NCBI GenBank assembly: GCA_030390025.1
Contig: CM059432.1
Coordinates: 75,890,001 to 75,954,000, forward strand
Length of the DNA stretch: 64,000 nt
Direction: 5' to 3'
Source: Squalus acanthias
Taxonomy: Eukaryota
The notes under the pieces are model-generated. The model did not search any database, had not been told where the DNA came from, and saw only the letters and a list, made by a program, of their open reading frames with translations. Made by a program: the position numbers and the translations under genes. Positions 548 to 31,606 of this stretch are shown one piece after another (position 1 is the first letter of the stretch; each line of letters starts with the position of its first letter).

Positions 548-3360
548 AGAATCATAGAATGGTTACAGCACGGAAGGCGGCCATTTGGCCTGTCAAGCCC
601 GTGCCAGCTCTCTGCAAGAGCACTTCAGCTAGTCTCACTCCCCCGCCCTTTCCCCGTAGCCCTGCAAATTTCTTTCCTTCAGATACTTATCCAACTCCAG
701 TTTGAAAGCCGTGATTGAATCTGCCTCCACCACCCTTTCAGGCAGTGCATTCCAGATCTTAACCACTCGCTGCGTAAAAACGTTTTTTCTTATGTCACCT
801 TTGGTTCTTTTGCCAATCACCTTAAATCTGTGTCCTCTGGTTCTCGATCCTTCCGCCAATGGAACAGTTTCTCTCTATCTACTCTGTCCAGACCTCTCAT
901 GATTTTGAACACCTCTATCAAATCTCCTCTCAATCTTCTCTGCTCCATCCTTCCTAAAGTGTGGTGCCCAGAATTGGACAATACTCCAGTTGGGGCCGAA
1001 CCAATGTTTTATACAGGTTCATCATAATTTCCACACTTTTATACTCTATACCTCTATTCATGAAGCCCAGGATCCCCTAAGTCTTTTTAACTGCTTTCTC
1101 AACCTGCCCTGCCACCTTCAATGATTTGTGCACATATACCCCCAGGTCTCTCTGTTCGTGCACCCACTTCAGGATTGTACCATTTAGTTTATATGTCCTC
1201 TCCTCATTCTTTCTACCAAAATGTATCACTTCACACTTTTGTGTGTTAAATTTCATCTGCCACGTACGTGTCCACCCATTCCACCAGCCTGTCTATGTCC
1301 TCTTCAAGTCTATCACTCTCGTCCTCACTGTTCACTATATTTCCAAGTTTTGTGTCATCAGCAAATTTTGAATTTGTGCCCTGTACACCCACGTCCAACT
1401 CATTAATATATATCAAGAAAAGCAGTGGTCCTAGAACCGACCCCTGGGGAATACCACTGTATACCTTTCTCCAGTCCGAAAAACAACCGTTCACCACTAC
1501 TCTCCGTTATCTATCACTTAGCCAATTCCGTATCCATGCTGCCACTGTCCCTTTTATTCCATGGCCCTGATTTCGCCATCGGAGGCGGGATCGCGGTGGA
1601 TGAGGTTGTTGGCGGGTCCCGGTCCCATTCCTGGCTCCAGCCGCTCTGTGAAAAGGATTTTACGTAGATTGGGCTCGTTAAGCCCGCCCTGCGAGGTTCC
1701 CGGCCAATTAAAAGGAAGCGGGTCTGATGACGCGTCATCAGCCGGTTTCCTTAAAGGGACCATGGCCACATTCAATTCATTTTGACAGTTGTTCTGTCAC
1801 TGTTCAGCAGCATTGAGGTGCTGCAAACACTGACAAGCACTGCACAAAGGTGCACGGCTGCACTCCCTCCATATGCTTATGGAGAGCGTCACAGCACGCA
1901 GGGAGGTTCTCTTCCCTTCCAAGGGCGGAAGAGACCTCCCCAGGACACCAGCGCAGCCTGGTTGCACATTGCACAGGAGGACACAAGCAGGGATGTCGCA
2001 AGAGAACCAGACCTTTCATTGATCTCAGTAGATAACGAACCGTTACTGCAAATCCACACCCAACCTCATCCTGCTGTGCCACTCATCACATCCCCATCAC
2101 TCTGCCTTCCCTACAGTACTCCTGCACATCCTTACTCACACCAACTTATCTTGCACCTCCACCTTTCTATCTACATTATCACTTTTCCATCTCAGTAGCC
2201 ACCCCTCACACTCACCCTCATCCTAGTGCAATCATACCAACTAACACACAAGGTGAGGCACTTGGGTGTTATATCCAATGTTCACGTAAATTTTCTGTTA
2301 ATGTGTTGTCAAACTTTGAAATCTTTATTTTCCACACTTTACCTTATTGGACAGATCTGTGCTCACCTTTGGAAGTGTCGTAGTGAGTTCCAGTGAATAG
2401 TGAGACATAACTTCCCGCTTCCCGCTCGCTCCTCCCCCACAATTGTGATGAGTGTGAAAGGAATGGCTTGGACATTGTGGTGCTGGTGTGGGGTGGTTTC
2501 AACCTGGCGCATCATGTGATAGCCAGGGTGTACAGAGTCAAGTGAAGTAAATCTGGCCATGGTGAGGCCATCCCTGGCCTCCCGGGCAGCAATGCTGTCG
2601 GGTGCTGATGCTGTGTCCTGTGCAGCATCAGATGATTGCGGAGAAGTTTGTTGTTGTTGGTGTGCCTGGTGATGTTGGTGTTGGGGCTGATCGTGGAGGG
2701 ATTCTGAGGACCAAGGTGAGATTTTTTCAAGGGCACCGATGTTGCTGGAATAAATGGCAGCTGAAGTTGAGATGACAGAAGCGATCTGTCAATGGTGAGA
2801 GAGGTTGCTCCAAGGAGGTGACAGTGGATAGAGAGTTTACTCTAAACACTTCCAAACTGCATACAGCTCAAAAGTGTCTTCCAAGTCCTGAAGGCTCAAG
2901 CTTCTGACATTGGAAATTGAACAGCTGTGAAATGGTAGCTTTCGTACCACTTTTGCAGCTGTCACCTATTCACAGCAATGGGGAGACATAAAGAACCCGA
3001 CCTACTTACCTGACGTGATCTCCGAACGACGTGAACCTCGTTAAAAAAGTGGTAAAATAGAAATAGGCTGGCAAAATAGTTAACAAGCGTTTAACAAGCA
3101 TTTAACTATCTTAAATGCCTCCCCTGCCGCTTGGTGTCGAGTCTGTTCTGAAATCGCAGACCTGACACTTTGGAAACTTATATGGAGGTGGGTTTGGAGC
3201 GGGCTCCCAATCCGCTGTCAATCATTTCGATTTTGACAGCGGACCCGCCTCCGAAATCGCCCTCTGAGCACCGGCAAAATCGCGACCCATGGGCTTCAAC
3301 TTTGCTGGCAAACCTATTATGTGGCACTTTGTCAAACACCTTTCGGAAATCCATGTACCC
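548..3360 (-). mobile_element. CR1 LINE 3' fragment (548-1562 and 3288-3360), interrupted by a Harbinger element
   Basis: ORFs 635..859 and 1246..1497 give CR1 RT C-terminus ([15 protein letters not shown], FTQRVVxIWNALP); sequence ttccatgggcttcaac is split by the insertion. Confidence 0.9.
1563..3287 (+). mobile_element. Non-autonomous PIF/Harbinger element (~1.7 kb)
   Basis: Imperfect 15-bp TIRs GGCCCTGATTTCGCC / GGCAAAATCGCGACC, 3-bp TSD CAT; decayed Myb exon 1 (RKRPPQDTSAAWLHIAQE) and transposase end remnants. Confidence 0.88.
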
Positions 3361-3607
3361 TACCCCACCTCCCCACCGATTTAAATATTTTTAATTAGGC
3401 CAGTGTCCGTTTCTAGTGGGAGTGCTGGCTGCCTAAATCAAAGACTGCTCAAAAATCATAACGGGCAGATCTCCAATAAGTCAGCAGATTTATTTTTCCT
3501 CTGGGGCTGTAACAAGACAAAAAATGACAGCCCCTTTAACTTCATTAGATCTACCACAACACAGATATCAAGAGCTCTCTAGTCATAGGTAGGTAGGTGC
3601 ACTCTAT

Positions 3608-6600
3608 GGGCTCGATTTTGCCATTGGGGGCGGGCTGGGGCGTGTCAGGTTGTTTTCGTGTCAGGATCCCGACTCCGATGTGAAGTGGGGAAAAAAGTAC
3701 GATTTTGCCCTAATTGGGCACTTGATTTCCAGCGTGTGGGAACCCCTGGCCCAATGAGTCTTTTCATACAGAAAGTCGCCTCCAATGACATCATCAATGC
3801 TGCTGGATTTAAGGCCTGCAAGCAGCCTTGCTTCTTCTAGAGACTTTAAACTTTATGCCCATTGTTGTGATCGCTTCATTCAGCAACTATGTCCAGCAGT
3901 AGAACAAAGTGTGTTCCAAGGTTCGATGAGGACTCCCTCCAAGCTCTGGTGGAGGGAGCAAGAGCAAATAAGGAGGTGCTCCTCCCTTCCTCAGGGAGGA
4001 AAAAGCCTCCCCAGCATACTAAAGCTATGTGGATGCAAGTGGCCCAGGAGGTCAACTCAATCTCTATGTGCCGCAGAACCTCGCTGCAGTGCAGACAGAG
4101 GTTTCATGACCTTCTCCGCACAGGAAAAGTGAGTATGACTTTCCTATCACCCTCAATCTGATCCCCATCGCCTCTCCTCACCAGCACTCTGCTTTGCCAA
4201 CCTCTTCCTCCACATCCCACTTGACACTTACATCCCTGCACCCTTACCCATTCCCTCTCTCTCTATGGTCACATTCACTTAACTATTCGACCATGCAGCC
4301 CTCACACTCCCTATCACTGTGATACAATTACAACAACTTACAACACACAGGGAGGGCCCTTTGTCTCCTTCTAAGCATCTATGCTATAGATTCTCTACAC
4401 TCACTCCTTCATTCTCACTCAAACTCCACTTGCAGGAAAGAGAGCCCACAATAAGAGGGAAAGAGCGAGGACAGGAGGAGGGCCACCCTCAGTAGCCCAG
4501 CTCACCACCTCGGAGGAGGCGGCCCTGGAAATCGCCGGTGTGGAGGAAGATTTGCAAGTGGGGGACAGACAGACGGGTGCATCACAGCAAGCTGGTGACA
4601 GAATAGTTTGGCATCTCTCTCATTGACATTGCATGAGTGACTGATAATGATTCTGATGCTCTAACAGATTGACTTATGATCATCTGCACAATTCAATGTG
4701 CATGTAACCTTTACCTCACATCTCTAACTCTTTCCTTTACTCCCCCACAGGACCATCGAGAGCCCCCGTCCCCACTGTCCAGGAGGAAGAGCCTGAGACT
4801 CAAGACTCCTCAGAGGAAGCTGCAATCTCTGAGGGCGCAGCGTCAGCAGAATTAAGCGCACCCAGCACCGACACTCACACCTCGGTGGGACCTTCGCGAG
4901 ATAGAGTAGTGTTGTCACCTGGTGTATCACAGCTCGCAAGTGAGCATCAGCAGATGGTGGAGACAGAGACAGCAGCGGAGAGTCCTTGTCGGAGGGTGCA
5001 GGACTCTCCCAGCTCGGCTCAGCTGCATGTCGACCCTGTGCCTCCAGGTCCATCCAGAAGGAGAGCGGTGCTGGAACTCCAGGAACAGGTGCAGGAGTCT
5101 CTGGCAGGTTTTGTCTCCAGGGTCGCTGCGAGTGTGGAGCGAATGGAGGAATCCATCGTGAACATGAGCAGAGCCTTTGTGGAGGCATTGGCACATGAAC
5201 GCATCACCACGGAAAGGATGGCAACCTCCATGGAAAGGATGGCTATGGTAGAGGAGAGGATGGCTACGGGCATGGAGGAGCTAAGTCGCCAGAGTGTTGA
5301 AAACATGGTCATTGTTCAGAATAGACTGACATCTCTTGAGGAGCAATGGTCAGCTATTGAGCATAGAAACCAGTCCTTAATGGAAGTCCTCTGGAGTAGG
5401 TCCTCATAGCCCCCCTGAAGTGCAGCAAGGTGCTGTCAAGCCACTTGCTAGCTCTGAAGTGGGGCTGACCCATGAGAGGGATGTTGGTGGCAGACAATAA
5501 GGAAGTGGGGGCTCTTCTCCAAGCACTCACACGACCATGCCACTGCAAAGCTCTCGGTCAGAGCCCCACCAGAGTCCTCACCCAACTGAGATGGGCGTCT
5601 CAGCCCCTGCACAGCCGCAGGAGCAGCAGACTGTTGCCGAGCCCTTACAGGCTCGCAACCCCAGAGGACGCCCGCCAAAGGTGTCGAAACAGGAGCAGCA
5701 AGAAAGTGAGCAAGGGGCCTCCACATCTGCTGAAACCACAGGGGAAGCACCACGTAAGAGCACGCTTAAGAGGGAGATAAAGCACAAGTAGCCACTTGGG
5801 TGTTCTGTTGTATTGTTTTTTGTCAAGCCATCCTTGTAATGTGATGATAAACAGATTTGATGGCAAACTGTTGAAGTTGTGGCCTGCGTCATCTCGCAAA
5901 TGGGACTTCCACACTGAGGGCTTAGGGCGACTTGCAATTGTCAGTATGGTCGTTAGTGATAGGAATCGGCAGGTTCTTGTCCATTGTCGATGCTCTGGTA
6001 AGAAGGTGCAAGGCAAAACTGTTTGATTGTGCAGGCTAAGCAAATCTGGCCAACATGAGTGCGTCCCTTGCATTCCAGGCTGCAATGTGGTCGTGTGCTG
6101 GTGCCTTCTTGCCTGTGCAGTTTCAGGTGGGTGAGCAGCAGCTTGCCACTCCTGTTGTTGCTGCTGTTGTTCATGGGTCTGCTGCTGCCGCGGCTGGTCT
6201 TCGTCCGAATCTGATGTCCAGGAGGAAAGGAAATAAATGGTTCCCATGCTTCTGGTATATGCCTCAGTTGAGGAAGCGCTCAGTCAAGGTGGGGAGAGGG
6301 GTTTCCCAGGAGGTCACACTGGAGATTGGTGTCAGGCTCCAAACTTCCACAACCATGAGTATGCCTGCTTAAATTTCCCCCAGACCTGAGAAAACAAAGT
6401 TCTGCCACCTGCAAATGATCACTGGTGAAAACTCCTTTTTAAATGTTGGAGCTGCAGCTGTTAGTAAGCAATCCACTTGTGAGGCCGCCAGGATTAACTG
6501 ACGTGTTCCAGGAGGAGATGTGCAGGACGGGGGAAATGCGTTAAAATCAGAAAGGCCTCTCAAAATGGGATTATAGAGGCAATTAACTGGTTGTTAAGGG

Positions 6601-6768
6601 CCTTAAGGTCCTATCCCGCCTCTTGGAGGCGGGATGGAAACGGGATCTGAAACCCCGATTCTGGGAAAATTGCTCAGAGGCGGGTTCGGAGCCGCCCACC
6701 ATTTTTTGCGATTTTAACACCTCACACGCCTCTAATCCCGCCTCCTCGGGCCTGGCAAAATCGAGCCC
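3608..6768 (+). mobile_element. PIF/Harbinger element with Myb/SANT gene, transposase internally deleted
   Basis: Perfect 16-bp TIR GGGCTCGATTTTGCCA, TSD TAT on both sides; Myb gene on +; transposase N-terminus (MGTIYFLSSWTSDS, ATG 6247) on - joined directly to its C-terminal tail. Confidence 0.92.
3889..5791 (+). pseudogene. Harbinger Myb/SANT-like DNA-binding protein gene, 3 exons (3889-4128, 4436-4594, 4751-5791), frameshifted
   Basis: PRFDEDSLQALVEG...W..VAQEVNS...QCRQRFHDL; GT-AG introns at the same positions as in the 56836-58738 copy; 1-nt deletion in exon 2 and a frameshift near 5400. Confidence 0.85.
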
Positions 6769-6880
6769 TATGGCTCTCCAGAGTCCAAGATGCTGTGCTC
6801 CCCAGCCTGTAGGACTTACCACAGTGAGTCATTGCCAATGAGAGTACAAAATTACCAGTTGTTCTTCAACTAAATTCATT

Positions 6881-7277
6881 GGTGCAGAAATTAGATGATG
6901 CTGCGCCAGTTTTACAGGCGTAAAATGGCGGCCAAAGCATCCAATTAGGTGGGTGGTGAGTGCGTGCATATTGAACTGAAAGCGCACCATTGCCATATTA
7001 GTAAAAAGAGGCGTCTAGGGCCCACACCTGAAACAGGTGCTAGGACCTTTGCCTATGCAAATAAGGGGCTTAACTTCTGTTTGAGGCCTCCTTTGCCAAA
7101 TTGGTTTGCCCAGAGGCAGCCAGCACTGGTCGGCTGTGTTCAGGAAAACCAGGTCTACATGCAGCCTAACCAGGGGTCCTTAAAGGGATCATTGCAGGCT
7201 GCAACCAAAATGGTACGTTTTTTTTTTAAAAAGATACTTACCTGAATGTGGATCCAGTGCAAACCAATTTCTAGACC
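6881..7277. mobile_element. Harbinger-type MITE
   Basis: Termini GGTGCAGAAATT / AATTTCTAGACC with 3-bp TSD ATT on both sides; no coding capacity. Confidence 0.65.
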
Positions 7278-7661
7278 ATTATTTTTAAGGTTCCAGGAAT
7301 AAGTGGGCAAAGCTTAAAATAACCCTTAAGTTTCCACAGCTAGATTTCAAGCCGAGATGTAAATTATGATCACAGACTCCAGCAGGTGTCCACAAACATG
7401 ATCTTCCAGCAGGGGGAAGCGCAAAGTAGATCACTCGAGGATAAAGAATCACCCGGAGCCGTGACACAGGAGCTGAGTTCCGAGCACAGCTGGCTATTTG
7501 GCTGCAAGGGGCTATGTTGTTCGAAGAATATGTTGTGATGCAGTTATATTATATATCATATTTTGTATCATTTCACGTAGCTGTTATTTGTATTTGCTTA
7601 ATAGAATTGTATTACTTAAAGCTAGTTGCAAACTGCAACAACAAATGCCTGTGCTCGATCG

Positions 7662-7682
7662 TATATATATATATATATATAT
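7662..7682. repeat. (TA)n microsatellite
   Basis: About 10 TA units seen directly. Confidence 0.9.
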
Positions 7683-8330
7683 TAGCATAATTGTACTGTC
7701 AGGCGAGAATCTGCTAAAGCTGGTGACCCTATTGAGTTTTTAGAAACTAATTCTAAACACTACAAAGCCTTAAGTTCAATTAAAGGAACATTGAAGCAGA
7801 CTCTCAGATGTCTGAATTAAACTGAGTCCCATTGTTGAAACAGTGAAAATTAGCACAAATATCTGGTCTAAGGAACAGCAGAAAATGATACTCAAATTTG
7901 ACAGAACATTGTTATAAATGAATAAAACAGATAATCAGACAGCCATGAATGAAATACTATGAATGCCTAAATCTGTAGTTGTATGTTTAAACTAACGGAG
8001 ATAAGCAGATGAGTAAACTATAAAAAAAGGCACATTTTTGAACATTGGTTGGATTTACATTCTGACCAGCCAGGGAATCCTCCAACACCAGCAGCACCTG
8101 AATCACTGAAGGGGACTTTACATCCTGTGCTGACAGGAAGTCCTCCATCACCACTAGTAGAAGGGTTACCAATAGAAGCTGTCCCGGATCGGAATTGGTG
8201 ACTTAGTGTTGATTAAGTGTAACAATGTTATTCACGCTAACCAAATAACAATGCTTCGATGAATAAATTTGTTGAGACAAAGTAAATAAGTGTTGTTTTA
8301 CAAGATACTGTAGTCTGGTGTGATTGCCGC

Positions 8331-11300
8331 TGGCCTGGATTAATGATCCGGAGACATGAGTTCAAAGCAGTTAATTAAATAAATCTGGAATAAAAAGCTA
8401 GTATCAGTAATTGTGACCATGAAACTATCGGATTGTCGTAAAAACCCATCTGGTTCACTAATGTCCTTTAGGGAAGGAAATCTGCCGTCCTTACCTGGTT
8501 TGGCCTATATGTGACTCCAGACCCACAGCAGCGTGGTTGACTCTTAACTGCCCTCTGAAATGGCCTAGCAAGTCACTCAGTTGTAATAAACCGCTACGAT
8601 AAACAATAAGAATAAAACCGGACCGACCACCCGGCATCAACCTAGGCAACGGCTTCAGACACGACAACGGCACACCCAACCAAGTTGACCCTGCAAAGTC
8701 GTCCGCACTAACATCCGGGGAATTGTGTCAAAATTAGGAGAGCTGTCCCACAGACTAGTCAAGCAACAGCCTGACATAGTCATACTCACAGAATCATACC
8801 TTTCAGCCAATGTCCCAGTCTCCTCCATCACCATCCCAGGGTATGTCCTGTCCCACCGGCAGGACAAACCCACCAGAGGTGGCGGCACAGTGGTATACAG
8901 TTGGAGAGAGTGGCCCTGGGAGTCCTCAACATTGACTCCGGACCTCATGAAATCTCATGGCTTCACGTCAAGCATGGGCAAGAAAACCTCCTGCTGATTA
9001 CCACCTATCGCCCTCGCTCAGCTAATGAATCAGTACTCCTCCATGTTGAACACCACTGAGGGTAGCAAGGGCACAGAATGTACTCTGGGTGGGGGACTTC
9101 AATGTCCATCACCAAGAGTGGCTCGGTAGCACCACTGCTGGCTGAGTCCTGAAGGACATAACTGTCAGACTGAGCCTGCGGCAGGTGGTGAGAGAACCAA
9201 CATGAGGGAAAAACCTACTTGACCTCGTATCACCAATCTACCTGTCGCAGATACACCTGTCCATGACAGCATTGGCAGCAGTGACCACCGCACAGTCCTT
9301 CTGGAGACGAAGTCCCGTCTTCACACTGAAGACACCCTCCATCGTGTTGTGTGTCACTACCACCGTACTAAATGGGATGGATTCAGAACAGATCTGGCAG
9401 TTCAAAACTGGGCATCTATGAGGCGCTGTGGGCCATCAGCAGCAGCAGAATTGTATTCTACCACAATCTGTAAACTCATGGCCCGGCATATCCCTCACTC
9501 TACCATTACCATCAAGCCAGGGGACCAACCCTGGTTCAATAAGGAGTGTAGAAGAGCATGCCAGGAGCAGCACCAGGCGTACCTAAAAATGAGGTGCCAA
9601 CCTGGGGAAGCTGCAACACAGGACTACATGCATGCTAAAAAGTGGAAGCAGCATGCTATAGACAGGGTTAAGCGATCCCACAATCAACGGATCAGATCAA
9701 AGCTCTGCAGTCCTGCCACATCCAGTCACACATGGTGGAGGACAATTAAACAACTAATGGGAGGAGGAGGCTCCATGAATATCTCCATCCTCAATGATGG
9801 CAGAGACCAGCATGCGAGTGCAAAAGACAAGGCTGGAGTGTTTGCCACCATCTTCAGCGAGAAGTGCCGAGTGGATGATCCATATTGGCCTCCTCCTGAG
9901 GTCCCAACGATCACAGAAGCTAGTCTTCAGCCAATTCTATTCACTCCACGTGATATCAAGAAACGGCTGAGCGCACTGGATACAGCAAAGGCTATGGGCC
10001 CCGACAACATCCTGGATGTCATGCTGAAGACTTGTGCTCCAGAACTAGCCGTGCCTCTAGCCAAGCTGTTCCAGTACAGCTACAACATTGGCATCTACCC
10101 AACAATGTGGAAAACTGCCAAGGTGTGTCCTGCCCACAAATTCAATCCGTCCAATTACCACCCCATCAGTCTACTCTCAATCATCAGCAAAGTGATGGAA
10201 GGTGTCATCGACAGTGCTATCAAGCGGCGCTTACTCACGAAAAACCTGCTCACCGATGCTCAGCTTGGGTTCCACCAGGACCACTCGGCTTCAGACCTCA
10301 TTACAGCCTTGGTCCAAACATGGACAAAAGAGCTGAATTCCAGAGATGAGGCGAGAGTGACTGCCCTTGACATCAAGGCAGCATTTGACCGAGTGTGGCA
10401 TCAAGGAGCTCTAGTAAAATTGAAGTCAATGGGAATCAGGGGGAAACTCTCAACTGGCTGGAGTCATACCTAGCACAAAGGAAAATGGTTGTGGTTGTTA
10501 GAGGTCAATCATCTCAGCCCCAGGACATCGCTGCAGGAGTTCCTCAGGGCAATGTCCTAGGTCCAACTATCTTCAGCTGCTGCATCAATGACCTTCCCTC
10601 CATCATAAGATCAGAAGTGGGGATGTTCGCTGATCATTGCACAATGTTCAGTTCCATTCGCAACTCCTCAGAAAATGAAGCAGTCCATGCCCGCATGCAG
10701 CAAGACCTGGAGGACAGTCAGGCTTGGGCTGATAAGTGGCAAGTAACATTTGCGCCACACAAGTGCCAGGCAATGACTATCTCCAACAAGCGAGAGTCTA
10801 ACCACCTCCCCTTGACATTCAACGGCATTACCATCGTTGAATCCCCCACTATCAACATCCTGGGGGTCACCATTAACCAGAAACTTAACTGGACCAGCCA
10901 CATAAATACTGTGGCAACAAGAGCAGGTCAGAGGCTAGGTATTCTGCGGCGAGTGTCTCACCTCCTGACTCCCCAAAGCCTTTCCACCATCTACAAGGCA
11001 CAAGTCAGGAGAGTGATGGAATACTCTCCACTTGCCTGGATGAGTACAGCTCCACAACACTCAAGAAGCTTGACACTATCCAGGACAAAGCAGCCCGCTT
11101 GATTGGCACCCCATCCACCACCTTAAATATTCACTCCTTCCACCACCAGCGTACCGTGTACCATCTACAAGATGCACTGCAGCAACTCACCAATGCTTCT
11201 TCAGCAGCACCTCCCAAATTCGCGACCTCTACCACCTAGAAGGACAAGAGCAGCAGGTGCATGGGAACACCATCACCTACAAGTCCCCTCCAAGTTACAC

Positions 11301-11518
11301 ACCATCCTGACTTGGAAACATATTGCCGTTTCTTCATCGTCGCTGGGTCAAAATCCTGGAACTCCCTCCCTAACAGCACCGTGGGAGTACCTTCACCACA
11401 AGGTGCAGCGGTTCAAGGCGGCGGCTCACCACCACCTTCTCAAGGGCAGTTAGGGATGGGAAATAAATGCTGGCCTTGCCAACGACGCCCACATCCCAGG
11501 AACAAATTTAAAAAAAAT
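8331..11518 (+). mobile_element. Near-complete APE-RT LINE (CR1/L2/Jockey group), decayed ORF2
   Basis: APE motifs (PDIVILTESYL, GGG, GDFNVHH), RT motifs (GPDNI, ALDIKAAFDRVWH, PQGNVLGP, FADH) across frameshifted ORFs 8725..11623; 3' AATAAA and A-rich end. Confidence 0.9.
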
Positions 11519-11734
11519 TACAACTGGATCTGCTGTTATAAATTTAACAAATTCATAAGCTTAACAGATACAGTAAATGAGAAGGAAGAGAAGAAAAATA
11601 TGTTGCGTTTATACAGCACCTGATCATATCCTCACTGTTGTTCTGCATGCAAATGCACAGCCTATGCATAACATGGTGCTACAAACAGAATAAAATAAAT
11701 GACCAATTCATTTCATTTTTGGTATTATTTGTAA

Positions 11735-12517: not shown

Positions 12518-12656
12518 CTTTAGTGAATTTCAAAGGAAGAGACAGATTTGAGGTCTTCGTGGCAATCAGAAGCTTTTCTCCACTGGTAAGAACAGTCAGC
12601 TCTTCAAATCCAAGACAAGTTCCCCACACTGGGAAGTGAGTCCCATGATCGTTGGC
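12518..12656 (-). CDS. GGH: GGH-B exon 5 (139 nt; catalytic Cys)
   Basis: ttaatag|...|gtaaaa; [46 protein letters not shown]. Confidence 0.95.
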
Positions 12657-19960: not shown

Positions 19961-20479
19961 TGGGCAAAAGTCCTACCCTGCCAGAACTCTGCACATTTTC
20001 TGATCAATGTATTGTCCAGTGGGTAGAACCATTTCCCACTATTCTGGCAAACAGGACTTCAAACATGAATTATGCCAAGTATACTAGGAGTTTTGGAAAG
20101 AATACAGTAATATAAAGGTTAGTGTATTCCAGCTATTTCTTTACCATTTTTCTTCCTTTATTCCTGTCAATGCTTAGGTCCTCATGAGTCTTTGTGCCAT
20201 TTATTTTTTGCCCCCAATCCTATTACTGGTAGAAATGTGTTTGCAAATGGGAGAAGGCTATAGTATATTCTCAATGACCTTTGACTGTCCAAAGTTGTCA
20301 GAATGACTTATTTTATTGTGATGATTCTGGCTAAGGTGGCTGCTCAATAAATGGGAATATAACATTCGGTTTTTCAGGGTAAACCTACAATTCATTAAAG
20401 CAATTTACTAATTATTGTTAAATGTGGTAAAATGTAGGAAAGAAAAAAGTGTCATTCAGGACCATTTTTATCTGTGTCC

Positions 20480-20940
20480 TATCCCAACCCCCATATCCCT
20501 CTATACCGAGCTTACTCCCTACTGAATGCTTCAGCTAAGTTAACATTTACTGCACTAGGCAGTAGCCTTTTCCATAAGGATAAGACTTAAATTTATCTCT
20601 AATTAGACTTTAGTTCTAATTTTGCACAAAATATCTCTCTAGAGCAACTTCAATGAGAATAGATTTAGCTTAATCCTTCTTCACAGTCCGGCAGTCTAAA
20701 AACAGAATCAGTGTACATACCTCTTTCCAAATCCTTTTACACTCCTAATATATTTTTTGTAAGTAGATAACCACAACTGTACAGTATTGTATTTTTGGTC
20801 ACACTAATGTTTTAGTGTCAGCATTACTCCATGGCCGGACCTACTTAGACAATCAACATTTGATTTGTCTTTGTAACCATTGCTATACATGATGATGGTG
20901 CTTTCAACATTTAGTTATTACATCTGGAACTTTTCCTTTG
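20480..20940 (-). mobile_element. Very old CR1-like 3' fragment
   Basis: Weak colinear similarity to the CR1 3' end (accacaactgtacagta, cctctttccaaatcc). Confidence 0.4.
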
Positions 20941-22058
20941 TCAGTTTGGAACACTGCCTGCTGACTTCATGACAAAAACTGCATGTTGCAGCAATGTTAA
21001 ACAGGAACCAAGATACAAACTGCCACTACAACCACATTAGCACACTGTGCCTGGGTCACACAGTGCTAACCTCCATCGATAGGGTAAATAATTCACTATA
21101 GTACTAGTGCCATTTACAAGAGTCTTGCAGCACACTCTATTCTTTCCTTTTACCTGGATTATTGGATAGAAATAATTAAAATAAGACTGATCTTTAACTG
21201 TCAAGAAAAAAGTATTAAATTGTTTTTAAAAAATGGCAAATAGATAATTCTATTGATAAAGAACACATTGAGCAGCCACAGTACCATATTCCAGGCTAAC
21301 AGCAGCAACCCATAACCAACTGGCCGGTAATTTCCTGCAGTGAGGAGCTACTAATGGCGCTCAGGGAAAGAGGTGCATTGGTGAAAATGTCAGCTCTCCA
21401 CCCAACTTTCTTTCACCTGTTTGATTGGATACCATCATTGTTCAAGATCACAGCAGACAAAAGGTGACATCACCTGCAATGCCACAAAAAATATTTGCTT
21501 CCCTGAGCCTAGAAACCAGAATTACAGTCTACTCTTCTTAATTCAGAGTTGCTCAATTTAAATCCACTGCTTTTAATACATCCGAAAACAACTGCTGTAG
21601 CTCAGAAATTGGTACTAAATTCTCTACCACCTAAACAGTTGGCAAAAGGAGAAGGGGGAAACAAGACATGTCTCCTGTTCAAGTGCAATGACAACATACC
21701 AAAATACCATTTTAATTTTTTTTTTAATTATTTTTTTTACAGTTAAATCTGTGCAAACAGAATTCCATTCAATAAACCTTGCTCTCTTAATGCCAGTAGT
21801 TGAAACTTTCAAGAACAGTAATACCTTAGTAGAATACATTGTGTAATAATCATTTACGACTCCCTCGCCAATAGAAAAACATCTCCTTTAACATCATACC
21901 CCTTAAAATGCTTTTTTATTCTTCCCAAAGACACTGTTAGCAAGAGCTCCTGTAATTTACTGCAGAGCGGACATGAAAAAGCCAAACTTTCAATGATACA
22001 CTGTAAAAAGTGACCCAAATATAAAACCAAGACTGTTGTGACTTAATAAACAACTTAC

Positions 22059-22109
22059 CCATTTATGGAATTAAATAGTTTCCGGTATTCAGCTTCAGTT
22101 AGTTTAATG
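22059..22109 (-). CDS. GGH: GGH-B exon 3 (51 nt)
   Basis: tccatag|...|gtaagt; IKLTEAEYRKLFNSING; phases match exons 2 and 4. Confidence 0.92.
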
Positions 22110-22349
22110 CTATGGAAGAAAAATATCAACATTAGATTAATTTTATTACATTTGGAAATGGAACATACTGCACTAGAAGAGTTTCTACTTCAGTAAAATA
22201 AAATCTGAATTCAGTCCTGGAGTATGACACATTTAAGAAGCAAATATTAAATAAATATAACTAAAAATGTTAATATTGGTTATTCAGTAAAGAGTTTATC
22301 AGCACCATTACAATTAATCGTACATAATCACAGTGCTCAAACAACCAAA

Positions 22350-24345
22350 ACCAGAAGTTGCATACAAATTGGCCAGAAGTAGCAGCAAACCCGGGGACTG
22401 GGAGAACTTCAAAACTCAGCAGAGGAGGACGAAGGGTTTGATTAGGGCAGGGAAAATAAAATATGAAAGGAAGCTTGCAGAGAACATTAAAATGGACTGC
22501 AAAAGCTACTATAAATATGTAAAAAGAGGTTAGTAAAAACAAACGTAGGTCCCCTGCAGTCGGAAACAGGGGAAGTCGTAATGGGGAACAAGGAAATGGC
22601 AGATCAATTGAACAAGTACTTTGGTTCGGTGTTTACTGTGGAGGACACACACAACCTGCCGGAAATAAAAGGGGTCAGAGGATCTGGTAAGAGGGAGGAG
22701 CTGAGGGAAATCCTTATTAGTCGGGAAAAGGTATTGGGGAAATTGATGGGACTGAAGGCTGAAAAATCCCCGGGGCCTGATGGTCTGCATCCCAGAGTAC
22801 TTAAGGAGGTGGCCTTGGAAATAGTGGATGCATTGACGATCATTTTCCAACATTCCTTAGACTCTGGATCAGTTCCGATGGAGTGGAGGGTGGCCAATGT
22901 AACCCCTCTTTTTAAAAAAGGAGGGAGGGAGAAAGCAGGGAATTATAGACCGGTCAGCCTGACATCGGTCGTGGGTAAAATGATGGAAGCAATTATTAAA
23001 GATGTCATAACAGACCATTTGGAAAGTGGCGACATGATAGGTCCAAGTCAGCATGGATTTGTGAAAGGGAAATCATGCTTGACAAATCTTCTGGAATTTT
23101 TTGAGGATGTTTCCAATAGGGTGGACAGGGGGGAACCAGTAGATGTGGTGTATTTGGACTTTCAGAAGGCCTTCGACAAGGTCCCACACAAGAGATTGGT
23201 GAGCAAAGTTAAAGCACATGGGATTGGGGGTAATGTGTTGACGTGGATTGAGAACTGGTTGGCACACAGGAAACAAAGAGTAGGAGTAAATGGGTACTTT
23301 TCAGAATGGCAGGCAGTGACCAGCGGGGTACCGCAGGGTTCGGTGCTGGGACCCCAGCTGTTTACATTATATATTAATGATTTGGACGAAGGGATTAAAT
23401 GTAATATCTCCAAATTTGCGGATGACACTAAATTGGGAGGCAGTGTGAACAATGAGGAGGATGCTAGGAGGCTACAGAGTGACTTGGACAGGTTGGGTGA
23501 ATGGGCAAATGTATGGCAGATGAAGTACAATGTGGATAAATGTGAGGTTATCCACTTTGGTGGTAAAAATAGAGAGGCGGACTATTACCTGAATGGTGGC
23601 AGATTAGGGAAAGGGGAGGTGCAACGAGACCTGGGCATCATGGTACATCAGTCACTGAAGGTGGGAATGCAAGTGCAGCAGGCAGTCAAGAAAGCAAACG
23701 GATTGATGGCCTTCATAGTAAGGGGATTTGAGTACAGGAGTAGGGAGGTGATGCTGCAGTTGTACAGGGCCTTGGTGAGGCCACACCTGGAGTATTGTGC
23801 GCAGTTTTGGTCTCCTAACTTAAGGAAGGACATTCTTGCTATTGAGGGAGTGCAGCGAAGGTTCACTAGATTGATTCCTGGGATGGCCGGACTGACATAT
23901 CAAGAAAGATTGGGTCAACTGAACTTGTATCCTCTGGAGTTCAGAAGAATGAGGGGGGATCTTATAGAGACATTTAAAATCCTGACTGGTTTAGACAAAT
24001 TAGATGCGGGCAGAATGTTCCCAATGGTAGGGAAAACTAGAACCAGGGGTCACAGTCTAAGGATTAAGGGGAAGCCATTTAGGACTGAGCTGAGGAGGAA
24101 CTTCTTCACCCAGAGAGTGGTGAATCTATGGAATTCTCTTCCACAGAAGGTTGTTGAGGCCAGTTCGCTAAATATATTCAAAAGGGAGTTAGATATAACA
24201 TTCACAACTAAGGGGATCAAGGGGTATGGCGAGAAAGCAGGAATGGGGTACTGAGGTAGCATGTTCAGCCATGAACGCATTGAATGGCGGTGCAGGCTCG
24301 AAGGACCGAATGGTCTACTCCTGTACCTATTTTCTATGTTTCTAT
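22350..24345 (+). mobile_element. Young 5'-truncated CR1 LINE
   Basis: Contains a 557-aa open RT ORF; ends in (TTTCTATG)-type tandem tail. Confidence 0.95.
22581..24254 (+). CDS. CR1 ORF2 reverse transcriptase domain (open, lacks endonuclease)
   Basis: [58 protein letters not shown] with no stops. Confidence 0.85.
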   Translation: MGNKEMADQLNKYFGSVFTVEDTHNLPEIKGVRGSGKREELREILISREKVLGKLMGLKAEKSPGPDGLHPRVLKEVALEIVDALTIIFQHSLDSGSVPMEWRVANVTPLFKKGGREKAGNYRPVSLTSVVGKMMEAIIKDVITDHLESGDMIGPSQHGFVKGKSCLTNLLEFFEDVSNRVDRGEPVDVVYLDFQKAFDKVPHKRLVSKVKAHGIGGNVLTWIENWLAHRKQRVGVNGYFSEWQAVTSGVPQGSVLGPQLFTLYINDLDEGIKCNISKFADDTKLGGSVNNEEDARRLQSDLDRLGEWANVWQMKYNVDKCEVIHFGGKNREADYYLNGGRLGKGEVQRDLGIMVHQSLKVGMQVQQAVKKANGLMAFIVRGFEYRSREVMLQLYRALVRPHLEYCAQFWSPNLRKDILAIEGVQRRFTRLIPGMAGLTYQERLGQLNLYPLEFRRMRGDLIETFKILTGLDKLDAGRMFPMVGKTRTRGHSLRIKGKPFRTELRRNFFTQRVVNLWNSLPQKVVEASSLNIFKRELDITFTTKGIKGYGEKAGMGY

Positions 24346-25726
24346 AACGGTCACAAACTTGATCATAATTTACCTCTTTTTGCTCAGCAGCTTAAAAACT
24401 AGAAACTTAAAAAAAAATGATTTGTACTATTAACTTGAGTCATAAAGGACCTTGGCCCCCCAGTGAGCAAGATTTTGACACTTCACCCCATCCCCACTGA
24501 GCAAGATTCCAACCCCTTGCTCCCCTATATTGGGTCCATTATTATCCATCCTTTAACCCTGTTGGATCAAGTTGATCTTGACTACTTGTGTGTAACACCA
24601 CAGGAGATCAACTAATACTATCAAATAGACATACAGAGTACTGGATCTCTTGTGGTGTTGCTTATAATGAATCCTGGTTTTATAATGATATGCAATATAA
24701 CACACAATATTATTAGGGCACTGATTTATAGTACCTAAATAAATCAAATTCAAATTTTATTACATGGTATTATTGGATTTTTTTTTCTTAAACCAGTGTT
24801 TTGTTGTACTGTGATCATGCTATGTATAGACCTGGCTAGGTTATCAATCAATAGAATTTGGACTCGAGCATGTGAGAAAGCCTGAAGCGAGCGAATTTAG
24901 GCATCCTTTAGGAAACCCTGAACATAAATGCCAAATCCCAATCCAATTTTCTGATGTGCATTCATTCAGTGACAAGAAAATCTAACTGAAAACAAATTCA
25001 ACAACATTTCTACTGTTTAAGAGCATGGGATCTAGTTTTATGTGCGCTTTCAATCCTAGCCACCCACTTCTACAGTGGCCGGAGATTCTGAGGTGGCCGG
25101 CAGATGATTTGTAGCAGGAGCCTTGAGGAATTGAGGTGGTACTTCCTGGTCTCTAGTTGTAGCAGTTTCCCCTTTAGAAGAAAGATAGAGTGAAGACACT
25201 CCTGCATGCCATCATATGGAATGCAACCTCGGTTTCAGAAGCATTCCTTAACTGGGATGAGAACAGGCACTGGTAATGAAATGTCTATCGTGTGAGTTGT
25301 CCACTGCTTCCCTGCGTGTTCTGTTTGAGTAAAGCAACACTTGCAGGAGAAGGAAAGGGGTGTGAAGGGTATTGTGGAACTTTCGACACATAGGTGGTAC
25401 ATTGCAGATGGTGCTCCATAGTGAGGGCAAAATGGCTGCATCTGGGAAAGATGCTCAGTATGGTGCACTGTTGCAAGGTGCGACTGCCTACTGTTAGGGT
25501 CAGTGAACTTCTTCCAGCATGGAGTAGCCTTCTGGGAGTTGGTGGAGGGGATATTCATTGTCAAGGTTACCTCCTTCCGCAGACCTGGATCGTGCCCTTC
25601 AGAGGCCTCCTTCCCTCAGTCTAAAAGCTGGGTGCTCATTTGCCGTTTTGCAGACAGTTACATTTCATCTGCATTCCATACTAATCACAGAAAAATGAGA
25701 ACCCAAAAATCTTCTACTGGACCTTT

Positions 25727-25997
25727 ATAGAAACAGAAAAAAAAATAGGAGCAGGAGTAGGCCATTCGGCCCTTCGAGCCTGCTCCGCCATTCAATATGA
25801 TCATGGCTGATCCTCTATCTCAATACCATATTCCCACTCTCTCCCCATACCCCTTGATGCCTTTTGTGTCTAGAAATCTATCTATCTCCTTCTTAAATAT
25901 ATTCAGTGACTTGGCCTCCACAGCCTTCTGTGGTAGAGAATTCCACAGGTTCACCACCCTCTGAGTGAAGAAATTTCTCCTCATCTCAGTCCTAAAT
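25727..25997 (-). mobile_element. CR1 3' terminal fragment
   Basis: FRTEMRRNFFTQRVVNLWNSLPQK in ORF 25820..26107 plus CR1 3'UTR. Confidence 0.9.
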
Positions 25998-26974
25998 AGC
26001 ATATTCTTTGCAGGAAAGGATACAACCAAACCAGAGAAAGAAATAGAAATTGCTAGGGTGTTTATGGTAGTTTGTTCCTTGCTATTCAGGAAAAGCTCCT
26101 CTTCCAAATAGATGATGGCTCCTCTGGTTATTCAATTATGGCAAAAGCCCACCAGCCCTGGTTGGTGCATAGCTGTCAATAGAACTATTGCAGACAAGAA
26201 AAACATGGTTTACCTGTGGATGCATTTAAGGTTATCATTATACTTGTCTCACTACACAGACAGGGGTAGGATAAATACTAAAGATATCACAAGTAATAGT
26301 TAAAAGCCGCAACCAAAATGCTAACACAGTTAGGAATTCAAATTATCACTCACAAAACCAGGAAGGTGCCCATGACAGTGGTAACTGAAGTTCCTGTCAC
26401 ATTGACTAAAGGCGCAACTTAATCAGAATCTGGCCACATTGGATGTTGCAAGTGGATTCTGGAATAGGAAATTACATCCAGGGAATCAGAATAAATTAGC
26501 TTTTTCCTTTAACCATAAGCATGCGTCCCTTGGGCTATGCTACCTCCCTTGCCGAGTTTAACATTTTTCCGTAAAGCTATACCAGATACAGTTGCGTGAG
26601 GAAATTTAAATTCTGATGGCAAACCAAAGCTTAGTAGAACACTGTAAAAAAATACTTACATGAATATGGCCATGATGGTGACAGCAGTACTAAAATATGA
26701 AGTATATAGGGCACAAAACTGTACAAAATGGCTTCCTGCTACAAACTGAATGGCCCGGATTTTGTGGTCAGTGGCAAACGAATGGCACTCACCGTTCATT
26801 ATGCTTTCAGCAGCCCACAAAGTATTTGAGAGCTTTTGCGCAGCAACTTACGGTTATTAGAAATCCATTTCAGCACAGCACCCTCTACAGGGGATCTGGG
26901 ACCTGTGTGAACAGAGCAAGCAACAGCGTGTCTCTTCAACCAATCAGACTGAAGAATCATCACTGAGCCACACA

Positions 26975-29900
26975 GGCCGGAATTTTGCCTACCTGAGCGG
27001 GTCCGGTGCGGGCGGTGGCCATGGCGGGTCACGACCCCGCTGCTGGCTCCATCCCGCTGCTGAAAACGACTTTACCTAAATAGGGCCTATTACGCCTGCC
27101 CTGTGCGTTACCCGGCCCAATTAAATGGTGCGGGTCTGGTGACGTCATCGATGACACGTTTTCAGCCGGGATCTTTAAAGGGGCTATGGCCACATTGGAT
27201 TTGAATATCAATGTAACATAGTGCTGTCAGTGCACTACAGCATTGGAGTGCTGCAAACACGGACAATGACTGCACAGAAGCAGAGGGCTGCACCCAGGTT
27301 CTCTGATGACTCGCTCCATATACTTATGGAGGGAGTCAGAGCACGCAGGGTGGTCCTCTTCCCTGCTGATGGGCGGAAGAGACCTCCCCAGGAGACCAAG
27401 ACAGCCTGGTTGCAGATTGCAGAGGAGGTCACCAGCAGGGATGTGGTCAGGAGGACCTGGGTGCAGTGCTGCAAACGTTTCAATGATCTCATTAGATCAC
27501 GAAATGTTAGTACTCAACTACATCCTGCTGTGCCTCTCATCACATCCCCATCACTCTGCCTTCCCAACCCTATCCCTACACATCATTACTCACACCAACA
27601 TACCTTGCACGTTCTCCCATCCCTCTCTCTCTCTCTCTCTATCTACATTATCACATCCCCATCTCACTAGCCAAACCTCAATTTCACCCTCATCTTAGTG
27701 CAATCATACCAGCTAACAACACACAAGGAGGTCACTTGGCTTTGGCACCCCACTCCATCATAGTCACCCTCTAAAGATCTAACCCATCCATTCCTCACAC
27801 TCATTCCATCATTCTCACTCAACCTTCTCTTCTTTCCCTCCCTGCAGGAAAAGAGAGCCCACAAGGGAGAGGGGAAGACCCGGTGGTGGCACTCCATCAT
27901 TTGCAAACCTTACAACAGCAGAGGAGGCTGCTTTAGAAATATCTGGAGTGGCCGAGCAGCTGGAGGTGGGAGATGGAGAGAGGGCGACATATCTCAGCAA
28001 CCTGGTGACAGAATTACATATCATACAGCTACATGGCATACATCAGTCACTCCGATGGGCACTGATGTCAGCAGCCACTGAATGGTCATCATGTGCATAA
28101 TGTTATCTGTACCCATTCTTCAAATTACATATCTAACTCATCTCTTTATTCTCCCAAAGGTCCATCAAGAGTGCCCCCCTGACACCCGCCCCCCCAACCC
28201 CACTGTCCAGGAGCAAGAGGAAGACGACTTCTCAGAGGAGCCTCCAGCCTCTGCGGACGCAACGTCACCAGACAGCAGCGCACCCAGCACCAACGCAGAT
28301 ACACACACCTCGGTGGGTGCCACGCCAGATAGAGTAGTGTTGTCACCTGGGGCTGAATTTTGCCTGCGCTCAGAGTGCGGGTTTGGAGGCGGGCCTGCTG
28401 TCAAAATCGAAATGATGACAGCGGGTTGGGAGCCTGCTCTGAACCCGCCTCCATGCAAGTTTCCAAAGTGTCAGGTCTGCGATTTCAGAACAGACCCGAC
28501 ACCAAGCGGAGGAATTTAAGGTAGTTAAATGCTTGTTAACTACTATTTTGCCAGCCTATTTCTATTTTACCACTTTTTTAACAAGGTTCCAGTCATACGG
28601 AGATCACGTCAGGTAAGGAGGTCAGGTTCTCTGATTCTCCATTGCTGTGAATAGGTGACAACTGCAAAAGTGGTAAGAAAGCTACCATTTCACAGCTGTT
28701 CACTTTCCAATGGAAGACACTTTTGAGCTGTATGTAGTTTGGAAATGTTTGGAGTAAACTCTCTATCCACTATCACCTCCTTGGAGCAAGCTCTCTCACC
28801 ACTGACAGATCGCTTCTGTCATTTCAACTTCAGCTGCCATCTATCCCAGTATCATCGGTGCCCTTGAAAAAATCTCACCTTGGTCCTCTGAATCCCTCCA
28901 CAATGAGCCCCAACACAAACATCACCAGGCACACCAGCAGCACCAACCTTCTCCATAATCACTTGATGCTGCACAGGACACAGGGCATCAGCACCCAACA
29001 ACATTGATGCCTGGGAGGCCAGCCATGGTCTCACCATGGCCAGATTTACTTTGTGACGCTGTACACCCTGGTTGCCACATGATGCGCCAGGTTGACACCA
29101 CCATCATAAAGCATCCCTACAATGTCCAAGCCATTCCTTTCACACTCATCAAAATTGGGGGTGGTGGGGGGGGGGGGGGGTTATGTCTCAACATTCACTG
29201 GAACTCACTAAGACACTTCCAAAGGTGAGCACAGATCTGTCCAAGAAGGTATAAAGTGTTGAAAATAAAGATTTCAATGTTTGACAACACATTAACAGAA
29301 AATTTACATGAACATTGCATAAAACACCCAAGTGCCTACCCTTGTGTGTTGTTAGTTGGTATGATTGCACTAGGGCGAGGGAGAGTGTGAGGGGTGGCTA
29401 CTGAGACAGGGAAGTGATAATGTAGATAGAGAGGGATGCGTGGAGGTGCAAGGTCAGTTGGTATGAGTAAGGATGTGCAGGAGTACTGTAGGGGAGGCAG
29501 AGTGATGGGGATGTGATGAGTGGCACAGCAGTATGAGGTTGGGTGTGGATTTGCAGTAACGGTTCATGATCTACTGAGATCAATGAAAGGTTTGCGCCAC
29601 TGCAGCCTGGTCCTCCCGATGACATCCCTGCTTGTGTCCTCCTGTGCAATCAGGCTGCGTTGGTGTCCTGGGGAGGTCTCTTCCACCCTTGGAATGGAAG
29701 ATAACCTCCGTGTGCTGTGACTCTCTCCATAAGCATATGGAGGGAGTCATGCGGGAGCCTGCGTGCAGCCGTGCACCTTTGTGCAGTGCTCGTCAGTGTT
29801 TGCAGCACATCAATGCTGTAGAACACTGACAGAACAACTGTCAAAATGATTGTGGACATAGTTTCTTTAAGGAAACTGGCTGATGACGCATCATCCAATA

Positions 29901-31606
29901 TCATCAGACCCGCTTCCTTTTATTTGGCTGGGAACCTCGCGGGCTTAACAAGCTCAATCAGGGGAAAATCATTTTCACAGAGCGGCTGGAGGTGGGACCT
30001 GGACCCGCCAACGACCTCTTCCGCCGCGATCCCGCCTCCGATGGCGAAATCGCAGCCCTGGTGTCTCACAACTCACAAGTGAGCAAGAGCAGATGGTGGA
30101 GACAGGGACAGTAGTGGAGACTCCTCGCCGGAGGGCGCAGGGCGCTCCTAGCTCCGCTCAGCTGCATGCAGACTCGAGGGCCATCCTGGAGGTGTAGGAA
30201 GAAGTGCAGGGGGCTCGGATAGGTTTTGCGAGCACGATGTCTGCAAATGTTCAGAGAATGGAAGAGTCCATCTCCAACATGAGCACCTCCATGTTGCAGG
30301 CGATGGCAACTGTAGGCTGCTCCATGGGTAGGATGGCCACCTACATGGAGCAGCTAATGAGCCACTCACAGGAGCACATGGTCTCTATGGAGAATAGATG
30401 GCTATGTATGGAGAATAGATGGCAGAGGCTCATAGACCTCGTCTCTAAGAGGGATGTCAGCATGGACGTGGGTCCTCATGGCCCCACTGATGTGCAGCAA
30501 TGTGCTCTCCAGCTCCTTGGCAGCAGGAAAGTGAGCAAGCTGCCTCTACTTCTGCTGAAGTCACAGGGCTAGTACCTCGTAGAAGCACGCAAAAGAGAAA
30601 GATGACACACAAGTAGATTCACAAAGGTAGCCACTTGGGTCTTTTATCCAATGTTTATGTAAAGTTTCTGTTAATGTGTTGTCAAACATCAAAATCTTTA
30701 TTTTCAACACTTTCTGGTCTTGGACAGATTTGTGTGCACCTTTGTAAGCGGCTTTGTGAGTTGCAGTGAATGATGAGACATAACGGTACCTCCAGCAATG
30801 GTGGTGAGTGTGAAAGGAATGGCTTGGTCATTGCAGGGATGCTTTATGGTGTTGGTGTGGGGTGGTGCCAACCTGGCGCATCATGTGGCAGCCAGGGTGT
30901 ACAGGGTCAAGTGATGTAAATCTGGCCATCGTGAGGCCATCCCTGGCCTCCCGGGCAGCAATGTGGTCGGGTGCTGATGCTCTCTGTCCTGTGCAGCATC
31001 AGGTGGTTGCGGAGAAGGTTGGTGGTGTTGTTGTTGGTGCTGCTGGTGTAGGGGTTCATCGTAGTCTGATTCTGAGGACCAAGGTGAGACAGTATAAATG
31101 GCACCCATGCTGATGGAATAGATGGCAGGTGAAGTAGAGATAACAGAAGCAATCTGTCAATGGTGAGAGAGGTTCTTCCAATGAGGTGACGTTGGATGGA
31201 GACTTTGCTGGAAAGACTGCAGCTGCTGAGTAAAGTGATCATCTGTCAGGTGGGAGCTTTTATAGTACATTTGATGCTGTCAACTAATCAGCTGGAGCAA
31301 TGGCCACTCAACCCCCGCCTCAGGTTGACAGACGTGGTTCCCGAGCAGCGTGTTTCCCGTGGCCATCCAGTTAAAATGAAAAGGTAAGGTTAATACCACT
31401 ATTAAGGGCCTGACAACAAGCTACTAATACTTTAAATTGGGTCGCCTGCCTCTATCGGTCGGGTCAGGACTGTGCTGACAGACTCGTCTGGGGGAAAGGC
31501 ATGTGGGAGCAGGATGACAGCGGGTTCCCGACCCGCTCCCAAAAAATAACTTTCCCACCCAACCCGCCTCCAATCGTGCCTGCTACCATCCCAGAAAATT
31601 CTGGCC
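26975..31606 (+). mobile_element. PIF/Harbinger element with Myb gene, transposase deleted; interrupted by a nested Harbinger
   Basis: TIRs GGCCGGAATTTT / AAAATTCTGGCC, flanks ACA/GCA; Myb exons 27266-27505, 27848-28004, 28160-(insertion)-~30615; transposase N-terminus MGAIYTVSPWSSES (ATG 31108, minus). Confidence 0.87.
28350..30057 (-). mobile_element. Non-autonomous PIF/Harbinger (~1.7 kb), inverted sister of 1563-3287
   Basis: TIRs GGGCTGAATTTTGCC / GGCGAAATCGCAGCC, TSD CTG; splits the host Myb exon 3 sequence tgtcacctggtgt; colinear reverse complement of 1563-3287. Confidence 0.9.

What the first reader, a model, noticed from the sequence alone, without database searches (positions are those of the whole stretch)
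1563..31606. Four Harbinger elements lost the transposase core at apparently the same CAGCAC(A) junction but kept Myb sequence
Seen: the two-gene element has CAGCACA at 55516-55522 (transposase N-terminus) and again at 56486-56492 (C-terminal tail), 970 bp apart. The elements at 3608-6768 (junction ~6095), 26975-31606 (~30972), 1563-3287 (~2603) and 28350-30057 (~28990) all read N-terminus -> cagcac -> (c/a)cgaccacattgc-like...gccagattt, so the entire DDE domain is removed at the same point. By eye, 3608-6768 is closer to the transposase-bearing copy than to 26975-31606 (MGTIYFLSSWTSDS vs [14 protein letters not shown] vs MGAIYTVSPWSSES; DSLQALVEG vs DSLHILMEG). Established: PIF/Harbinger transposition needs both a DDE transposase and a Myb-like protein. 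Inference: either the same deletion recurred in separate subfamilies (hotspot or directed excision), or a long-lived Myb-only lineage diversified and recombined. Either would suggest a split system in which Myb-only elements supply their own end-binding protein and borrow transposase in trans.
Basis: partly seen in the sequence, partly recalled or inferred. Interest (0 to 1): 0.72.

Follow-up and report, generated by a model that had tools for sequence, protein, structure and literature searches.

The report
Two Harbinger lineages, one deletion site
Four broken jumping-gene copies in a shark-like genome lack their cutting enzyme at the same short repeat, but they form only two lineages that likely lost it separately, none carries a working helper gene, and helper-only elements of this kind are already known.

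Summary
The junction is real. All four copies join the transposase start to its tail at the CAGCAC repeat that flanks 970 bp in the core-bearing copy A. They are not four events. D (26975-31606), C (1563-3287) and E (28350-30057) are one lineage, and C/E also lost Myb exons 2-3, so 'kept Myb' is overstated. B (3608-6768) is a second, very abundant family that is closer to A. Core-bearing shark proteins with D-type arms exist, so B and D are not one simple deleted clade. B shows no D-like tract at the scar. The likeliest history is two microhomology-mediated deletions at the homologous repeat, each amplified with borrowed transposase. Scar transfer by recombination is the main rival, and C/E are visibly chimeric. 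Every Myb here is broken, and Myb dN/dS inside D/C/E is about 1. Myb-only Harbingers are published (PMC13668399, PMC8437027). The scan noted this junction in at least eight other windows of this genome.

The parts
54857..58999 (+). Element A: two-gene PIF/Harbinger copy, decayed, TSD TAT; reference for the deletion
55378..56550 (+). Transposase ORF of A (DDE_Tnp_4, PF13359, E 8e-27); 2 stops and an in-frame gap near 55986
55516..55522 (+). Left copy of the CAGCACA repeat (end of the N-terminal arm)
56486..56492 (+). Right copy of the CAGCACA repeat (start of the retained tail), 970 bp downstream
56839..58762 (-). Three-exon Myb/SANT gene of A, convergent with the transposase (PF13873, E 3e-6)
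3608..6768 (-). Element B: transposase-core-less copy of an abundant family, perfect 15-bp TIR, TSD TAT
6094..6100 (-). Deletion junction of B
3889..5791 (+). Myb gene of B, three exons (3889-4128, 4436-4594, 4751 to about 5791); 1-nt loss at exon 2 start, 20-nt gap, one stop (PF13873, E 6e-9)
26975..31606 (-). Element D: core-less, older-looking, broken three-exon Myb on +, E nested in exon 3
30971..30976 (-). Deletion junction of D
1563..3287 (-). Element C: D-lineage body with A-like left end, inserted in a LINE-like repeat, TSD CAT; Myb exons 2-3 lost
2602..2607 (-). Transposase deletion junction of C
2247..2265 (-). Second deletion junction of C (CCAAGTG..CCTTGTG imperfect repeat), removing Myb exons 2-3
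28350..30057 (+). Element E: same subfamily as C, nested in D, TSD CTG
28989..28994 (+). Transposase deletion junction of E
29328..29346 (+). Second deletion junction of E, shared with C

Best explanation
The four copies are dead insertions of two non-autonomous Harbinger lineages (B, and D/C/E) that lack the transposase core at the same short repeat; each likely lost it in its own microhomology-mediated repair event and likely spread afterwards on transposase borrowed from core-bearing relatives. Shown: the shared junction, the two lineages, intact ends and distinct target duplications (separate insertions after the loss), core-bearing relatives on both sides, a second repeat-bounded deletion in C/E, and the chimeric left end of C/E. 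Inferred: repair by end joining at the repeat, two separate events, and mobilisation in trans. Myb is predicted to be a passenger in D/C/E; in B's family it may or may not have been used. Why this repeat won over the other candidates is not explained.
For: B is closer to A than to D on both sides of the scar and through most of the element. Three-way site counts within about 110 nt of the scar: A=B 15, B=D 8, A=D 10, the same ratio as the flanks (Fisher p 0.62). Of 120 database transposases, P0017 matches D's tail and its 30-residue extension (67% over 49 aa; 66 bits vs 28 for A and 23 for B) and runs on into the core. P0071, P0016 and P0091 also score best on D-type arms. With A and these proteins core-bearing and on opposite sides, B and D cannot be one deleted clade without recombination. 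The base just right of the repeat is A in A and B (read also as G in B's family) but C in D, C and E, matching the Pro of P0017. In one contig of organism F a B/A-like N-arm leaves B exactly at 6094, the end of the repeat (record 13; the remaining letters are not shown). Repeat-bounded deletions of 5-8 bp are the described route to non-autonomous derivatives (PMC3814204, abstract; 10.64898/2026.08.26.747230, passages). C/E show a second such deletion.
Against: The repeat is one of 19 exact pairs of 7 bp or more in A, so hitting it twice by chance is about 1 in 20 if all were equal. C/E prove that these families exchange parts, so a scar can move. Around the scar the three lineages are nearly equidistant (77-82%), whereas just upstream B-A is 87% and B-D 63%. 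The coding-signature test on the remnants is inconclusive: B and D differ mostly at third positions (26 of 48, p 0.002), but branch w is 0.68-0.79 and does not differ from the neutral D/C/E control (Fisher p 0.63). No close core-bearing B-type relative was found: no loose end at the junction among the 24 of 661 rows shown except one unrelated-looking contig at 6087. P0014 scores alike on A and D arms (52 vs 53 bits). The database proteins are automatic models of decayed copies, with no DNA at hand. Only 5 copies were aligned at full length.
Confidence: 0.5

Rival explanations
1. One deletion, later copied between families. A core-bearing element broken in its core would be repaired from a core-less relative, or arms would be swapped, putting the old scar between new ends and a new Myb gene.
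For: Chance recurrence at one of 19 or more repeats is unlikely. C/E carry the D-type scarred body behind an A-like left end: first 180 nt 73-80% to A vs 53-59% to D, the rest 72-95% to D from about position 300 to the second deletion. Synonymous distance varies about fourfold along Myb (A-B dS 1.05 in exon 1, 0.27 in exon 3), a mosaic pattern. B-D identity rises from 63% to 80-82% next to the scar. Earlier scan notes favour this reading (not evidence).
Against: A-D identity rises in the same stretch (68 to 77-79%), and B=D states are not enriched (p 0.62 vs flanks, 0.81 vs exon 3). The first base after the repeat separates A/B from D/C/E/P0017, so any D-to-B tract would have to end within a few bases. 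A third, unsampled donor is not excluded.
Confidence: 0.3
2. One ancient Myb-only lineage under selection: B and D descend from a single core-less ancestor that kept making its own Myb for a long time, and core-bearing copies resemble B or D through later exchange.
For: Myb w between B and D is 0.48 (95% CI 0.35-0.66). B's family is deep on both sides of the junction in runs of organisms A, B, D and F, with subfamily alleles whose shares differ by organism. The family keeps in frame the 20 nt that this B copy lost.
Against: It needs exchange over nearly the whole length to explain B's closeness to A and D's closeness to P0016/P0017. The same w (0.54) holds for A-B and A-D, so it fits selection before the loss. 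Inside D/C/E, w is about 1, and C/E spread without exons 2-3.
Confidence: 0.12
3. Directed loss: the transposase would nick at a cryptic end beside the repeat, making this a hotspot in every subfamily.
For: A TIR-like GGGCTG starts at 55523, the first base after the left repeat, and ranks 17th of 8256 positions under a profile of the 10 real ends.
Against: Its score is 1.5 bits against 19 for the real end, and several positions were looked at. The right side ranks 152nd. Pairing between the inner flanks ranks 14 of 71 repeat pairs. No joint from 55522 to 56492 appears among the 15 of 86 joints shown on A.
Confidence: 0.08

Closest known systems
Harbinger-1M_cIno / Harbinger-2M_cIno of Caenorhabditis inopinata (PMC13668399; abstract and sections 8 and 12 read; supplements not read)
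   Same: PIF/Harbinger derivatives that keep the DNA-binding gene, lack the DDE gene, expanded, and are proposed to get transposase in trans (the paper calls this hypothetical).
   Different: There, 14 of 19 MADF loci are intact and several are expressed, a new insertion was caught, and only one intact DDE gene remains. Here all Myb copies in the window are broken, expression is not shown, and core sequence is abundant in the runs. The sections read report no junction shared between diverged families.
Solo-ORF variants of Harbinger-Snek in sea kraits (PMC8437027; passages read)
   Same: Vertebrate Harbinger with multi-copy variants encoding only the DNA-binding protein (452 intact in L. colubrina), attributed to large deletions.
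   Different: One young family. The passages seen do not discuss breakpoints shared across families.
Kodama/Nozomi Transib deletion in Drosophila (10.64898/2026.08.26.747230; passages read) and Gnome/Elf/Goblin from Ozma (PMC3814204; abstract only)
   Same: Non-autonomous derivatives formed at 5-8 bp microhomologies. Kodama poses the same 'once or repeatedly' question for one precise deletion.
   Different: Single-gene transposons. Kodama's clusters belong to one family, whereas B and D differ by 25-40% outside the scar region and have different ends.

Membership tests
PIF/Harbinger DNA transposons | DDE_Tnp_4 transposase | tested here: met
   A: PF13359, E 8e-27; best relatives are shark HARBI1-like proteins, up to 62%. 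In B, C, D and E only the arms remain.
PIF/Harbinger DNA transposons | Second gene with a Myb/SANT-like domain | tested here: met
   PF13873 in A, B and D exon 1 (3 of 3 tested); C/E exon 1 by alignment
PIF/Harbinger DNA transposons | Short TIRs and 3-bp target duplication | tested here: met
   5 of 5 elements; 4 perfect TSDs, D with one mismatch
Myb/MADF-only (solo-ORF) Harbinger derivatives | DDE core absent, ends kept, multi-copy | tested here: met
   4 copies with distinct TSDs; 3223, 9154 and 11559 contigs laid on 581 bp around B's junction in three runs (not a copy number)
Myb/MADF-only (solo-ORF) Harbinger derivatives | Intact DNA-binding gene in the element | tested here: not met
   0 of 4 window copies intact. 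At family level, one of B's three lesions is shown to be private; the other two were not tested.
Split system with Myb supplied by the core-less element | Purifying selection on Myb after the transposase was lost | tested here: inconclusive
   D/C/E: w about 1, not met for that lineage. B: only one copy, and between-family w 0.48-0.54 cannot be dated.
Split system with Myb supplied by the core-less element | Spliced Myb transcript from core-less copies | not testable with these tools
   Only contigs of runs guessed to be RNA were available; they give no strand and cannot tell copies apart.
Split system with Myb supplied by the core-less element | Mobilisation by transposase in trans | not testable with these tools
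   Inferred from distinct TSDs after loss of the core; needs an assay.

The most novel reading that the evidence does not exclude
Shark Harbingers carry a built-in, conserved deletion hotspot that has repeatedly spun off transposase-less families. At least one of them (B type) kept its own diverged Myb under selection across several shark species, to recruit a relative's transposase to its distinct ends.
Probability: 0.15. Interest if true: 0.6.

Novelty: new variant of a known kind. Interest (0 to 1): 0.3.

Why it matters
Helper-only Harbingers are known, so the layout is not new. The twist is one breakpoint shared by families 25-40% apart. If it recurred, internal deletions of DNA transposons are more sequence-directed than the many available microhomologies suggest. 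If it was transferred, non-autonomous scars can jump between diverged families, against the 'rare recombination' seen in teleost Harbingers (PMC9179366, passages). The high copy number makes either testable from an assembly, along with the open question of whether Myb-only elements use their own Myb. My 4 literature searches listed no paper on this shark family or junction; Repbase/Dfam, subscription papers and supplements were not seen.

Tried and rejected
Whole-genome census: no genome is held. Intron loss: no register of the repeat gives GT/GC..AG on either strand (read), and the element is a DNA transposon; rejected. New fusion protein: B's remnant reads on for about 200 codons, but family contigs carry 2 more bases near 5951-5955, which puts a stop at about codon 97; D and C stop about 30 codons after the junction. 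The 97-aa peptide has 1 hit among 1.84 billion representatives, an unrelated repeat protein with no match to the window; rejected. I first read P0014's NARDAL as B-specific, but B's Asn is private and P0014 scores alike on A and D arms; dropped as evidence. Quartets A,B|D,C do not place the root and were not used for monophyly. The codon-position test on the remnants is confounded by composition. Hairpin and cryptic-TIR tests were weak. Two searches for longer Myb relatives with single exons of B found nothing (0 of 48 and 0 of 3014 candidates), which is weak evidence. No RNA holder was listed. No intron-matching joint appeared among the 15 of 86 joints shown for the four runs, two of them guessed RNA; this says nothing on expression. 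No tRNA or Rfam hit in the window.
Full report
Setting. The window is repeat-rich DNA with one 500-N gap. The transposase's nearest relatives are shark HARBI1-like models, so the genome is shark-like. No whole genome is held. I label the elements A (54857-58999), B (3608-6768), C (1563-3287), D (26975-31606) and E (28350-30057, nested in D).

Observation. A has a transposase ORF (55378-56550; PF13359; two stops) and a convergent three-exon Myb gene (PF13873). Family contigs carry extra core sequence at 55982-55986, so A also has an internal gap. CAGCACA occurs at 55516 and 56486. In the five-way alignment B, C, D and E all jump between these two sites. All five have TIRs and 3-bp target duplications, different for B, C, D and E, so each inserted separately after the loss.

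How many events. D, C and E are 79-94% alike across the remnant arms and share the scar by descent. C and E share a second deletion, at an imperfect repeat of about 18 bp, that removes Myb exons 2-3. Their first 180 nt are A-like (73-80%, against 53-59% to D) while the body is D-like, so they are chimeras. B is closer to A than to D in the N-arm, 3' UTR, exon 3 and both introns. Exon 1 is the exception: A-D 68%, A-B 65%, B-D 60%. Among the 120 transposases listed, 10 scored on any arm. P0017 runs from the core across the right breakpoint into D's tail and its extension (67% over 49 aa; 66 bits vs 28 and 23). P0071, P0016 and P0091 also score best on D-type arms. P0014 is ambiguous, and the rest are weak. 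Core-bearing sequences therefore sit beside both B and D, and a single deleted clade is excluded unless parts were exchanged.

Recurrence or transfer. I used the 20 majority letters visible (40 of 86 rows shown) for B and the D/C/E majority. Within about 110 nt of the scar the sites split A=B 15, B=D 8, A=D 10, as in the flanks (p 0.62). I thus do not reproduce, for this pair, the D-like scar tract that earlier scan notes describe for other windows. The base right after the repeat also follows family lines. Against recurrence: 19 exact repeats of 7 bp or more could remove A's core, identities converge near the scar, and recombination demonstrably occurs. The coding-signature test on the remnants was inconclusive. 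A cryptic TIR-like start at 55523 (rank 17 of 8256, 1.5 bits) and flank pairing (rank 14 of 71) are weak. I put two separate deletions at 0.5, scar transfer at 0.3, one ancient selected lineage at 0.12 and transposase-directed loss at 0.08.

Abundance. On 581 bp around B's junction, 3223, 9154 and 11559 contigs were laid in runs of organisms A, B and D, and 219 in a run of organism F. Depth is high on both sides. It dips at the junction, where this copy has several private changes. No listed piece bridges the junction by the tool's 31-letter rule (the best has 27 on the short side), so family-wide sharing of the scar is inferred from contigs covering the junction columns (12-44 per DNA run at 6094 and 6096) and from the lack of junction loose ends among 24 of 661 rows. 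On A, depth over the core (140,000-452,000 in run X1) is of the same order as over Myb exon 3 (64,000-670,000), so core sequence is plentiful; these depths are not copy numbers.

Is Myb used? No core-less copy here has an intact Myb. B has three lesions, of which the 20-nt gap is private, since 17 and 12 contigs in two runs keep the segment. Myb w is 0.48-0.54 between families but about 1 within D/C/E, and C/E spread without exons 2-3. Myb was therefore dispensable in that lineage; for B's family it is undecided. Expression could not be tested.

Mechanism. Established for the superfamily (as cited in PMC9179366, passages): Myb binds the ends and the transposase, and both are needed. Inferred here: repair of a break or excision gap joined the two short repeats. 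The shortened element kept its ends and was moved by proteins of core-bearing relatives; further deletion and end swapping gave C/E.

Known work. MADF-only expansion with proposed trans supply is described in C. inopinata (PMC13668399; abstract, sections 8 and 12). DNA-binding-only variants occur in sea kraits (PMC8437027; passages). Microhomology-bounded derivatives, and the once-or-repeatedly problem, are described for Ozma (PMC3814204; abstract) and Kodama (bioRxiv 10.64898/2026.08.26.747230; passages). Supplements were not read. Four searches listed nothing on this shark junction. The scan's own notes report it in at least eight other windows of this genome.

Verdict. The junction is real, the lineage count and Myb retention were overstated, and the element type is known. 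What remains is one breakpoint shared by two diverged families, with its cause unresolved. New variant of a known kind; interest 0.3.

Noticed in passing
window 44852-45345 (+): Fragment of a second, distant Harbinger-type transposase (29-42% to database proteins, E down to 7e-13), unrelated to elements A-E at DNA level.
   Followed up: no
window 3100-3287 and 28350-28540: Left ends of C and E are A-like while their bodies are D-like; the switch lies about 180-300 nt in. This is end swapping between Harbinger families.
   Followed up: yes
window 56839-58762 vs 3889-5791 vs 27266-30620: Synonymous distance between families is about 1 in Myb exons 1-2 but about 0.3 in exon 3, and the introns look more alike than synonymous sites of the neighbouring exons. 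Mosaicism, CpG decay or alignment bias; unexplained.
   Followed up: partly
window 5207-5276: 21-bp tandem repeat (3.3 copies) in B's Myb exon 3 adds in-frame heptad-like units absent from A.
   Followed up: no
window 946-1564 and 3287-3348: C interrupts a LINE-like repeat that is continuous at 51606-52265, and E interrupts D: nested insertions that give a relative order. Long reverse-transcriptase-like ORFs lie at 9223-11099 and 22515-24251 (the label is recalled, not tested).
   Followed up: no
run X20, place 6087: One contig joins a B-like tail to different upstream letters that resemble an N-terminal arm; possibly another junction or family.
   Followed up: no
window 49863-49899, 49493-49584 and 50753-50925: A 37-bp segment is repeated directly and inverted, within 83-92 bp blocks that are 94-95% alike.
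   Followed up: no
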